IMG/VR virus record: IMGVR_UViG_2531839667_000007
DNA length: 36,911 nt
Direction: 5' to 3' (one strand)
DNA from: a virus
Taxonomy: Duplodnaviria > Heunggongvirae > Uroviricota > Caudoviricetes
Part shown: positions 12,631 to 14,340 of the stretch, piece by piece
How positions within the stretch are numbered: the stretch's first letter is position 1
Layout of the letters: each line of letters begins with the position of its first letter
The notes under the pieces: generated by a model
What the model was told of the DNA's origin: nothing
Database searches by the model: none
The model's input: only the letters and a program-made list of their open reading frames with translations
Translations under genes and position numbers: made by a program

Positions 12631-12849
12631 ATGGCATTTAAACACTATGATGTTGTCAAGGCGGCGTCGCCGTCAGAGCTTGCGGAAAAGCTGACACACA
12701 AACTGAAAGAGGGCTGGCAGCCGTTTGGTAGTCCGGTGGCCATAACCCCTTATACCCTGATGCAGGCGATTGCCGCGGAGGGGGATGTGACCACGCCAGT
12801 GGTTGTGCCCGGCACGGGGGATGGTGGCCAACGGACGGGAAATCAGTGA
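12631..12849 (+). CDS. DUF1737-like small late protein (72 aa from MAFKHYDVV; alternative ATG 12616)
   Basis: Track ORF 12616..12849; family name from recall of lambdoid prophage late regions. Confidence 0.55.
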   Translation: MAFKHYDVVKAASPSELAEKLTHKLKEGWQPFGSPVAITPYTLMQAIAAEGDVTTPVVVPGTGDGGQRTGNQ

Positions 12850-13499
12850 CAACGCTGCTTTATTACCGTGCAACAGAGTCAGGTGGTTTACTGAATCCGC
12901 AGGGATGGGGAGCTGAAGGAGGGCGTGCATTGGTAGTTGATGATGCAGGTGCTGCAGGAGGTAAGGCGCTGAGGTGGACCAAACAGACAGGAAGTTCCTC
13001 GTGGTTTATGCAGCATGATGCCGGTAATGGCGCAGACCTGCTGGAGAAGGGCGGGCTTATCAGTTGTCGTTTTAAAGTTGATGGCATACTGACAGCTAAT
13101 CAGTACGCACTGGCGCTGTACTGGCCGGTTTCTTCACTGCCTCAGGGCGTCACACTGGAAGGTAATGCCGGTCATAACCTGCTGGCGTCGTTTTACGTAC
13201 AGAGCGATGCCACAGACCTTAATGTGATGTACTACAAGGGAAATGCTGGTCAGAACACGAAGCTGGGGTCATTCGGCGCATTTGATAACGAATGGCATAC
13301 GCTGGGCTTCCGTTTTGCCGGTAACAACAGTATTGAGGTGACGCCGGTCATTGATGGTAAGGACGGGACGCCGTTCATGCTGTCACAGTCACCGGTCGGC
13401 ACGTTTACGGCAGACAAATTGCGCGTGACCGATATCACTAGCGGTGCGACATATCCGGTGCTGATTGAAAGTATAACAGTGGAAGTGAATAACCCGTAA
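12846..13499 (+). CDS. hypothetical late protein (217 aa; possibly DUF826-like)
   Basis: GTG start overlapping upstream stop (GTGA); C-terminal half has a degraded second copy at 14045-14340. Confidence 0.6.
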   Translation: MTTLLYYRATESGGLLNPQGWGAEGGRALVVDDAGAAGGKALRWTKQTGSSSWFMQHDAGNGADLLEKGGLISCRFKVDGILTANQYALALYWPVSSLPQGVTLEGNAGHNLLASFYVQSDATDLNVMYYKGNAGQNTKLGSFGAFDNEWHTLGFRFAGNNSIEVTPVIDGKDGTPFMLSQSPVGTFTADKLRVTDITSGATYPVLIESITVEVNNP

Positions 13500-13646
13500 G
13501 CAGGAAAAAAAGGCCGCCGGGGCAGGGAAAACAAGGAGCCAGAACCGGCGGCAAATGTCGTTATATCCAAAGCAAAACATGCAGGACACTTTTTTAACCA
13601 ACAGGTATTAACGATGTCAACACCATATCAATAACCGGGAGGGATA

Positions 13647-13829
13647 ATGAGATTTGTACAGCTTATTTTATTGTATTTCTGCACGGTGGTGTGCACGTTA
13701 TATCTGGTAAGTGGCGGGTATAAGGTTATCCGGAACTATATACGCAAAAAGATTGATGCCGCGGCGGCGGAAAAAATCAGCGCCAGCCAGTCAGCCGGAA
13801 CAAAACCCGAAGAGCCTCTCATTTCGTAG
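13647..13829 (+). CDS. small predicted membrane protein (60 aa)
   Basis: Track ORF; ATG 4 nt after CCGGGAGGG; hydrophobic N-terminus FVQLILLYFCTVVCTLYLV. Confidence 0.4.
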   Translation: MRFVQLILLYFCTVVCTLYLVSGGYKVIRNYIRKKIDAAAAEKISASQSAGTKPEEPLIS

Positions 13830-13866
13830 CAACTTTCTTAACAACACCTTTCAACGAGAAAATCCC

Positions 13867-14058
13867 ATGTCAGAAATAAAATCTCTGGTCACTGCTGAAG
13901 CAGTGAAGGACGTCCTGCGCTCTGAAGAAGTCAGAAGCGCACTGAAACAGCAACTCCGCCAGAATCTTGAGGCGCGTCTTGATGCTGAAGTGGATGCCAT
14001 TCTGGATGAGCTGCTGGGGGGATCCGTTCCTGATGTCGTACTTCACTCAGACCACTGA
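13867..14058 (+). CDS. small hypothetical protein (63 aa, MSEIKSLVTAEAVKDVLRSEEVRSALKQ...)
   Basis: Internal ATG of track ORF 13711..14058; weak SD. Confidence 0.4.
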   Translation: MSEIKSLVTAEAVKDVLRSEEVRSALKQQLRQNLEARLDAEVDAILDELLGGSVPDVVLHSDH

Positions 14059-14340
14059 CGGCAGAGTGAATCTGATGCATCACAGGAAAGCCGGAAACAC
14101 GAAGCTGGGGGAGTTCGGCGATTACGGTAACGACTGGCAGACGCTGGAGCTGGTGTTCACCGCCGGCAGTGCCACGGTTACTCCGAAACTGAATGGAGTG
14201 GCTGGCCGGCATTCCAGGTTATAAAAGACAGTCTGACACTGGGACTGAATGCGCTGACGCTGACGGATGTTACAAAAAATGCAGCGTATGGCGTTGAGAT
14301 AGAAAGTCTGGTGCTGGAGATAAATGCACCGGCAGCATAA
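14045..14340 (+). pseudogene. frameshifted 3' fragment of a paralogue of the 12846-13499 gene
   Basis: One frame gives ...KAGNTKLGEFGDYGNDWQTLELVFTAGSATVTPKLNG, matching the C-terminal half of the 12846 protein; homology continues in another frame (...YGVEIESLVLEINAPAA) after a shift near 14200-14215. Confidence 0.5.

What the first reader, a model, noticed from the sequence alone, without database searches (positions are those of the whole stretch)
12846..14340. Late ORF with a frameshifted, truncated second copy downstream
The C-terminal half of the 217-aa protein at 12846-13499 recurs at 14045-14340, readable only across a frameshift near 14200-14215. Two small ORFs (13647-13829 and 13867-14058) lie between the copies. 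This indicates a local duplication followed by decay, adjacent to the IS.
Basis: seen in the sequence. Interest (0 to 1): 0.4.

Follow-up and report, generated by a model that had tools for sequence, protein, structure and literature searches.

The report
Two dead nanS-p esterase gene remnants
The "gene plus decayed second copy" is two leftover tail ends of two different versions of a known prophage sialic-acid esterase gene (nanS-p), joined by recombination between prophages; this is ordinary prophage wreckage, not a local duplication.

Summary
The 217-aa ORF (12846-13499) matches 14018-14206 (frame +2) and 14236-14325 (frame +1), joint E = 1e-9.

The interpretation does not hold. Both pieces are the C-terminal lectin-like domain (Pfam DUF6645, PDB 6YP6) of NanS-p, the prophage 9-O-acetyl-sialate esterase.
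- **Copy 1** is itself a remnant. It is 99.8% identical to a 645-aa "A-type" nanS-p. A 1069-bp out-of-frame deletion removed the esterase domain.
- **Copy 2** is 99.7% identical to the last 319 nt of a 616-aa "B-type" nanS-p that is intact in hundreds of E. coli genomes. It is joined by a 1-nt-microhomology junction (14022) to a truncated DUF826 gene.

The two copies share only 38% of residues and almost no DNA identity, so they are old alleles, not a recent duplicate. Both junctions occur together in the same 8 of 5426 complete E. coli genomes. RefSeq already marks these pieces as pseudogenes there.

All 8 genomes have CCC where the window has CC (14206-14207). The frameshift is therefore a private 1-bp deletion or a sequencing error, inside a fragment that was already dead. 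The IS (ISEc48-like, 14457-15792) is a later, unrelated insertion. Interest is low.

The parts
12631..12828 (+). nanS-p 5' remnant: codons 1-66, encoding the DUF1737 domain. After the deletion joint the reading frame runs on out of frame to a TGA at 12847-12849. The mechanical ORF is 12616-12849.
   Evidence: 97.5% identical to nt 1-198 of the A-type nanS-p in L003. Pfam DUF1737, E = 1e-16. RefSeq marks it as a partial pseudogene in relatives.
12736..12773 (+). Interval holding the left crossover, which is homologous. Upstream SNPs follow the iraM-linked B-type locus (E2348/69-like, L008). Downstream SNPs follow the A-type allele.
   Evidence: SNP pattern in a 4-way alignment: position 12735 matches the B-types, and positions from 12774 onward match A.
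12828..12829 (+). Junction 1: a 1069-bp internal deletion of A-type nanS-p (gene nt 199-1267). It removes the SASA esterase domain, is out of frame, and has 1 nt of microhomology.
   Evidence: Window 12631-12828 equals L003 2501-2698 and window 12829-14022 equals L003 3768-4961. Junction sequences are shown.
12829..13499 (+). A-type nanS-p 3' remnant (about residues 423-645), a complete C-terminal jelly-roll, lectin-like domain.
   Evidence: 99.8% DNA identity to L003. 214 of 216 residues match the A-type C-terminus. Pfam DUF6645, E = 5e-70. PDB 6YP6 NanS-p, E = 5e-97, aligned over residues 1-216.
13647..13829 (+). Intact DUF1378 gene (60 aa), part of the A-type module.
   Evidence: Pfam DUF1378, E = 6e-40, full length. 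Annotated as intact in relatives.
13867..14022 (+). DUF826 gene, first 52 of 89 codons (A-type module). The ORF continues for 12 foreign codons to a stop at 14056-14058.
   Evidence: A-type homology ends at 14022, which equals L003 4961. Intact DUF826 is L003 4806-5075. Pfam DUF826 matches profile positions 1-57 of 75.
14022..14022 (+). Junction 2: an illegitimate joint with 1 nt of microhomology ('A') between DUF826 and nt ~1532 of a B-type nanS-p.
   Evidence: A-type match ends at 14022 and B-type match starts at 14022. Three-way junction sequences are shown.
14022..14340 (+). B-type nanS-p 3' remnant ('copy 2'): the last ~105 codons plus the stop, about half of the DUF6645 domain, with no start codon of its own.
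   Evidence: 99.3% identical to L004 4501-4938. 689 records match at >=99%, and in most listed hits the match lies in an intact 'SASA family carbohydrate esterase' gene. After adding one C the translation is identical to the B-type C-terminus.
14206..14207 (+). Frameshift site: CC here, CCC in every close relative (GGCTGGCCCGGC).
   Evidence: Alignments. The best of 689 near-identical E. coli hits is still 99.7%, which is this gap.
14441..15808 (-). ISEc48-like IS3-family element (14457-15792) flanked by a 16-bp direct target duplication, ATATTATCAATATGCG (14441-14456 and 15793-15808). It is inserted in the B-type intergenic region upstream of the holin gene.
   Evidence: 99.3% identity over the full 1336 bp to annotated ISEc48 copies. 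The empty site is seen in L001 and L004.

Best explanation
The region between the prophage tRNA cluster and the holin gene is a recombination scar. It holds the remains of two different nanS-p alleles. nanS-p encodes the prophage 9-O-acetyl-sialate esterase, built as DUF1737 - SASA esterase - DUF6645 lectin-like domain.

The recipient prophage had the order tRNAs - iraM - B-type nanS-p (616 aa) - holin, as in E. coli E2348/69. Its nanS-p was replaced from about gene nt 140 to nt 1531 by DNA from an A-type module (nanS-p 645 aa - DUF1378 - DUF826). The left crossover was homologous, inside the conserved DUF1737-coding segment. The right joint was illegitimate (1 nt of microhomology) and cut DUF826 after codon 52.

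The incoming A-type nanS-p also carries a 1069-bp out-of-frame deletion that removes the esterase domain. The result is an orphan A-type C-terminal domain (read mechanically as the 217-aa ORF) and, 520 bp downstream, the orphan last third of the B-type gene ('copy 2').

Neither piece can make an esterase. The CC/CCC difference is a late, private 1-bp loss, either biological or from sequencing, in DNA that was already non-coding. The ISEc48-like element inserted later still.

Shown: homologies, junctions, distribution and domain identities. Inferred: the direction (which phage was donor and which recipient) and the order of events.
For: - **Copy 1 and its flanks.** Window 12631-12828 and 12829-14022 match A-type locus L003 at 97.5% and 99.8%, skipping 1069 bp.
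- **Copy 2 and its flank.** Window 14022-14456 and 15793-16500 match B-type locus L004 at 99.3% and 97.7%.
- **Junctions.** Junction sequences show only 1 nt of microhomology at each joint.
- **Domains.** The intact A and B proteins each have DUF1737 + SASA + DUF6645. Copy 1 is a full DUF6645 and corrected copy 2 is a partial DUF6645. Copy 1 matches PDB 6YP6 at E = 5e-97. The B-type protein hits 3PT5 (NanS) and 6YP6.
- **Identity of copy 2.** Corrected copy 2 is identical to the B-type C-terminus. Copy 1 versus copy 2 is 38% at the protein level, with only 52 nt of DNA similarity.
- **Distribution.** 100-nt probes across each junction are found full-length in the same 8 of 5426 genomes. RefSeq annotates those loci as partial DUF1737, DUF6645, DUF826 and DUF6645 pseudogenes.
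- **Recipient-like locus.** iraM next to an intact B-type nanS-p is seen in E2348/69. The crossover is mapped by SNPs.
- **Frameshift.** It is absent from every close relative.
- **Recurrent decay.** Independent internal deletions of nanS-p occur elsewhere, for example in S88.
Against: - No intermediate was found in the complete-genome set: neither junction 2 with an intact A-type nanS-p, nor the deletion alone. The order of events, and even whether they were separate events, is therefore inferred.
- Which phage was donor and which was recipient is a matter of description.
- The source genome of the window is not in the collections, so its reads cannot be checked.
- The deletion leaves both flanking domains whole and creates a GTGA stop/start overlap. 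This is compatible with, though no evidence for, residual expression.
Confidence: 0.9

Rival explanations
1. One reading: a local tandem duplication of the 217-aa gene's 3' half, followed by divergence, truncation and frameshift decay in place.
For: Two homologous segments lie 520 bp apart on the same strand, and the second is truncated and frameshifted.
Against: The copies share 38% of residues and essentially no DNA identity, while each is at least 99.7% identical to a separate intact allele in other genomes. In-place decay to 38% identity would have destroyed that near-identity to the intact allele. The DNA flanking copy 2 on both sides is B-type or foreign, not a duplicate of copy 1's flanks.
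Confidence: 0.02
2. The frameshift at 14206-14207 is a sequencing or assembly error (a missed C in GGCCCGGC) and not a real mutation. The true sequence would read in one frame, as in all relatives.
For: - All 8 genomes with the same mosaic, and hundreds with the intact allele, have CCC.
- Over 14.4 kb, the window differs from the MFDS1001074 prophage by only 7 SNPs but 2 single-base deletions. Both are in 3-base homopolymers (position 11 TTT>TT and 14206 CCC>CC).
- The same CC variant turns up in an unrelated IMG/VR contig that carries several other homopolymer indels.
Against: - The large structural genes of the window are intact ORFs (terminase 661 aa, portal 540 aa, tape measure 859 aa), so the error rate is not high.
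- A non-coding remnant is free to accumulate real indels. One relative (Z1323CEC0012) has its own 1-bp indel near junction 2.
- Either way the fragment stays a truncated pseudogene.
Confidence: 0.4
3. The split nanS-p is functional. The deletion would produce two separately translated late proteins: a stand-alone DUF1737 capsid-decoration domain and a free lectin-like domain re-initiated at the GTG that overlaps the upstream TGA (GTGA at 12846-12849).
For: - Both domains are left whole. The ORF's limits match the crystallised stand-alone domain in 6YP6.
- The stop and start codons overlap.
- A preprint reports that most DUF1737 proteins are single-domain and that DUF1737 is the capsid-binding part of phi24B gp84.
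- The arrangement is kept at >=99.5% identity in 8 genomes.
Against: - There is no good Shine-Dalgarno sequence before the GTG, read directly from the sequence.
- The GTG is an internal Val codon of NanS-p.
- The only two substitutions relative to the A-type parent are both non-synonymous.
- RefSeq treats both pieces as pseudogenes.
- Eight near-identical copies give no power to detect selection.
- This prophage has lambda-like tail and tape-measure genes, unlike the short-tailed phi24B where decoration was shown.
Confidence: 0.05
4. The frame change is a programmed ribosomal frameshift that yields a full copy-2 product.
For: None beyond the existence of two frames.
Against: Relatives encode the same residues in a single frame. 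The site GGCCGGC is not a slippery heptamer. The fragment has no N-terminal half and no start codon of its own.
Confidence: 0.01

Closest known systems
NanS-p, the prophage-borne 9-O-acetyl-N-acetylneuraminic acid esterases of EHEC/STEC lambdoid phages (933W L0105, phi24B vb_24B_21/gp84; PDB 6YP6 for the C-terminal domain)
   Same: - Both copies are pieces of nanS-p genes.
- The position is the same, in the late region between Q/tRNAs and the holin gene.
- Copy 1 is the complete jelly-roll, lectin-like C-terminal domain and copy 2 is its last half.
- Heterogeneity of the C-terminal region (groups CTR1-4) and alteration of it by an IS element are already described (PMC10462455).
   Different: No esterase (SASA) domain remains and there is no continuous ORF. 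These are pseudogene remnants, not functional members. Two different alleles are represented in one locus.
Mosaic joints between lambdoid prophages (modular exchange by homologous plus illegitimate recombination)
   Same: One crossover lies in a conserved segment (the DUF1737-coding 5' end). One joint is illegitimate with 1 nt of microhomology. Whole modules are swapped (nanS-p-DUF1378-DUF826 versus nanS-p alone).
   Different: Nothing unusual. Here the joint falls inside genes and so leaves visible wreckage.
Other nanS-p deletion derivatives, such as the E. coli S88 and ST131-type prophages annotated 'DUF1737 domain-containing protein'
   Same: An internal deletion removes the esterase domain and keeps the DUF1737 5' end and the extreme 3' end.
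   Different: The end-points are different and independent, and those loci keep only one allele's remains.

Membership tests
NanS-p esterase (functional gene) | N-terminal DUF1737 domain | tested here: met
   Window 12616-12846 matches Pfam DUF1737, E = 1e-16.
NanS-p esterase (functional gene) | Central SASA/SGNH catalytic esterase domain | tested here: not met
   No SASA hit in any window ORF. The intact A and B alleles have one. 1069 bp covering it are deleted.
NanS-p esterase (functional gene) | C-terminal jelly-roll, lectin-like domain (DUF6645, PDB 6YP6) | tested here: met
   Copy 1 is a full DUF6645 (E = 5e-70) and matches 6YP6 (E = 5e-97). Copy 2 covers only profile positions 44-115 of 119.
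NanS-p esterase (functional gene) | One continuous ORF of about 616-645 aa | tested here: not met
   The DUF1737 part is in frame 1 and copy 1 is in frame 3, because 1069 is not a multiple of 3. Copy 2 lacks its N-terminal 510 codons and is frameshifted.
NanS-p esterase (functional gene) | 9-O-acetyl esterase activity | not testable with these tools
   This needs an enzyme assay. Activity is not expected without the catalytic domain.
Local (tandem) gene duplication | The two copies are each other's closest relatives | tested here: not met
   38% amino-acid identity between the copies, against 99.8% and 99.7% DNA identity to two different alleles elsewhere.
Local (tandem) gene duplication | Duplicated flanks or a head-to-tail junction derived from the same locus | tested here: not met
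   Junction 2 joins DUF826 to B-type DNA. The downstream flank is B-type intergenic sequence.
Programmed ribosomal frameshift | The frameshift is conserved in relatives and lies at a slippery site | tested here: not met
   All relatives read in one frame with CCC.
IS-mediated rearrangement | An IS end coincides with a rearrangement junction | tested here: not met
   The IS at 14457-15792 is a simple insertion with a 16-bp target duplication. Both junctions exist without the IS in 8 genomes.

The most novel reading that the evidence does not exclude
The deletion that removed the esterase domain may have created a working two-gene arrangement. One gene would encode a stand-alone DUF1737 capsid-decoration protein. 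The other would encode a free sialoglycan-binding lectin module, translated by stop/start coupling at GTGA (12846-12849). This would be an example of domain fission in a phage accessory gene. Separately, the recurrence of the CCC>CC loss in an unrelated nanS-p (IMG/VR contig L009) could mark a mutational hot spot.
Probability: 0.05. Interest if true: 0.35.

Novelty: already known. Interest (0 to 1): 0.08.

Why it matters
It matters little beyond correct annotation.

- This prophage has lost its nanS-p esterase, so it cannot add to its host's ability to use 9-O-acetylated sialic acids from mucus.
- The 217-aa ORF and the downstream fragment should be annotated as nanS-p pseudogene remnants, not as a gene and its duplicate.
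- It is a clean worked example of how modular exchange between lambdoid prophages leaves paralogous fragments that look like local duplications.

Tried and rejected
- **Local duplication** was rejected on the identities.
- **IS involvement** was rejected. The IS is absent from the 8 relatives that have both junctions and it carries its own target duplication.
- **Programmed frameshift** was rejected because the relatives read in a single frame.
- **Evolutionary intermediates** were sought with 100-nt junction probes. None was found; both junctions always occur together.
- **The CC variant elsewhere.** There were no hits in metagenome contigs or genome contigs. One hit in IMG/VR turned out to be an unrelated, more diverged (95.8%) full-length B-type gene with several other 1-bp indels. 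It does not settle mutation versus error.
- **The phage (INPHARED) collection** holds no record with this mosaic. The best coverage was 44%.
- **The promoter/terminator scan** of 12400-14500 gave nothing informative.
- **Literature search** for truncated nanS-p found no description of this arrangement.
- **Not used:** structure prediction and the large protein-database searches. Pfam, the PDB and near-identical annotated genomes already gave unambiguous answers.

Full report
**Observation**

The 217-aa ORF at 12846-13499 (GTG start) was searched against the window with tblastn.
- It matches 14018-14206 in frame +2 (39% identity over 66 aa) and 14236-14325 in frame +1 (43% over 30 aa).
- The joint E-value is 1e-9, and nothing else in the window scores better than E = 0.07.

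The only adjustment is that the homology begins near 14018-14022 rather than 14045.

**What the two pieces are**

- Pfam assigns the 217-aa ORF to DUF6645 (E = 5e-70), the upstream 77-aa ORF to DUF1737, 13647-13829 to DUF1378 and 13867-14058 to DUF826.
- The 217-aa ORF matches PDB 6YP6, named 'NanS-p', at E = 5e-97, aligned over query residues 1-216.
- According to PMC10462455 and bioRxiv 10.64898/2026.04.10.717836, NanS-p is the prophage 9-O-acetyl-sialate esterase. It has three parts: an N-terminal DUF1737 domain, the catalytic SASA domain, and a C-terminal jelly-roll, lectin-like domain thought to bind carbohydrate. In phi24B the DUF1737 part binds the capsid.
- The intact alleles retrieved here have exactly this DUF1737 + SASA + DUF6645 architecture. 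The B-type allele also hits the NanS structure 3PT5 and 6YP6.

**Copy 1 is itself a remnant**

The comparison locus is an O157:H7 prophage (L003) with the order tRNAs - nanS-p (645 aa, WP_000143000.1) - DUF1378 - DUF826 - holin. I call this the A-type.
- Window 12631-12828 equals gene nt 1-198 (97.5%).
- Window 12829-14022 equals gene nt 1268 to the end, plus DUF1378, plus the first 156 nt of DUF826 (99.8%).
- The missing 1069 bp is not a multiple of three and covers the esterase domain. The joint has 1 nt of microhomology.
- The DUF1737 frame therefore stops at 12847-12849. The '217-aa protein' starts at an internal Val codon of NanS-p, and 214 of its 216 remaining residues equal the A-type C-terminus.

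**Copy 2 comes from a different allele**

- Window 14022-14456 matches, at 99.3%, the last ~320 nt of a 616-aa nanS-p (WP_000874348.1, the B-type) plus its downstream spacer, in O145:H28 RM13514 (L004). That locus runs tRNAs - nanS-p - holin, with no DUF1378 or DUF826.
- In the complete E. coli genomes, 689 records match copy 2 at 99% or better. In most of the listed hits the match lies in an intact 'SASA family carbohydrate esterase' gene.
- Adding one C at 14206-14207 gives a translation identical to the last 105 residues of that protein.
- The A-type match ends at 14022 and the B-type match begins there, sharing a single 'A'. This is an illegitimate joint that cuts DUF826 after codon 52 of 89.

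**Why this is not a local duplication**

- Copy 1 and corrected copy 2 share 38% of residues. Their DNA shares only one 52-nt stretch at 81%.
- The full A and B proteins are 58% identical overall, and the literature already notes that the C-terminal region is the most variable part.
- Each copy is nearly identical to its own intact allele. The difference between them is therefore old allelic divergence brought into one locus by recombination, not decay after duplication.

**Reconstruction**

- Upstream of nanS-p the window carries three tRNAs, a small partial ORF and iraM. The same layout next to an intact B-type nanS-p exists in E2348/69 and in many other genomes.
- SNPs follow that B-type locus up to 12735 and follow the A-type from 12774. 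This places a homologous crossover in the conserved DUF1737-coding segment.
- The simplest account is this: a B-type nanS-p had gene nt ~140-1531 replaced by A-type DNA, with one homologous and one illegitimate end, and the A-type gene also suffered the 1069-bp deletion.
- The order and number of events are inferred. Probes of 100 nt across each junction are found full-length only in the same 8 of 5426 genomes, with no intermediates. These are D1, 2013C-4465, O157:H16 98-3133, O55:H7 DEC5B, MFDS1001074, BA92, Z1323HEC0355 and Z1323CEC0012.
- RefSeq already annotates these loci as partial DUF1737, DUF6645, DUF826 and DUF6645 pseudogenes.
- Other prophages, for example in S88, show different internal deletions of nanS-p, so loss of this gene is recurrent.

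**The frameshift**

- The window has CC where L001, L002 and L004 have CCC, in the context GGCTGGCCCGGC. The best of all E. coli hits is still 99.7%, and that difference is this gap.
- Over 14.4 kb shared with the MFDS1001074 prophage there are 7 SNPs and two 1-base deletions, both in three-base runs. The other deletion is at window position 11.
- The large structural genes are intact, so the sequence is not generally error-ridden.
- The exact CC 41-mer is absent from the metagenome and species-representative collections.
- It occurs once in IMG/VR, in a different and more diverged full-length B-type gene that has several other 1-bp indels.
- I cannot decide between a real private deletion and a sequencing error, and I put the odds at about 60:40. 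Either way, the fragment lacked its first ~510 codons before the shift arose, so it has no functional consequence.

**The IS**

- 14457-15792 is 99.3% identical over 1336 bp to annotated ISEc48 (IS3 family).
- It is flanked by a 16-bp duplication of the target and interrupts otherwise continuous B-type spacer DNA.
- None of the 8 relatives has it.
- It is therefore a later, simple insertion, unrelated to the two copies.

**Function**

All of this lies in the late transcript between the tRNAs and the lysis genes.
- The locus can no longer encode an esterase.
- DUF1378 is intact.
- The DUF1737 ORF and the lectin-domain ORF are each whole domains and are joined by a GTGA stop/start overlap. Residual expression cannot be excluded, but nothing supports it. 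There is no convincing ribosome-binding site, the only two changes relative to the parent are non-synonymous, and RefSeq treats both pieces as pseudogenes.

**Verdict**

The biology is ordinary: these are pseudogene remnants of a known gene family at a prophage recombination joint.

Noticed in passing
window 14441-15808; also L010 and L011: The ISEc48-like IS3-family element is flanked by a 16-bp target duplication. Two other ISEc48 copies in unrelated genomes are flanked by 15-bp duplications (CACCTCATCGAGTAC and TGTTTCGTGCATTTC). From my own knowledge, this is far longer than the 3-5 bp usual for IS3-family elements.
   Followed up: partly
window 12044-12379 (-): A prophage-borne homologue of the RssB anti-adaptor IraM sits between the tRNA cluster and nanS-p. 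It is annotated WP_000871291.1 in relatives and has no Pfam hit. The same iraM-nanS-p neighbourhood is found in about 1380 complete E. coli genomes.
   Followed up: partly
window position ~11: A second 1-base deletion (TTT>TT) relative to the MFDS1001074 prophage lies inside what is an intact 'exonuclease' gene there. The window starts within that gene, so the effect cannot be seen in full.
   Followed up: partly
L009 (IMGVR_UViG_2534681836_000017) 9028-11069: An unrelated, 95.8%-identical full-length B-type nanS-p carries the same CCC>CC loss plus other single-base indels. This is either an indel-prone site or recurrent sequencing error at GGCCCGGC.
   Followed up: partly
L012 (E. coli S88) 2297-2645, and many ExPEC genomes: A different, independent internal deletion of nanS-p leaves a DUF1737 5' remnant joined to the last ~145 bp of the gene. 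It is apparently widespread (many hits labelled 'DUF1737 domain-containing protein').
   Followed up: partly
window 11503-11752 (+): A cluster of three tRNA genes. ARAGORN calls them Met (CAT), Arg (TCG) and Arg (TCT). RefSeq calls the first one tRNA-Ile in relatives. From my own knowledge, this is the usual ileZ-argN-argO-type cluster of Stx-like lambdoid phages.
   Followed up: no
window ~7239-7244, compared with L006: The MFDS1001074 prophage has a ~1.1-kb insertion (annotated 'integrase core domain-containing protein') that the window lacks. Strain D1 has an ISCro1 insertion between DUF1378 and DUF826. Different IS elements have hit the same prophage lineage.
   Followed up: no
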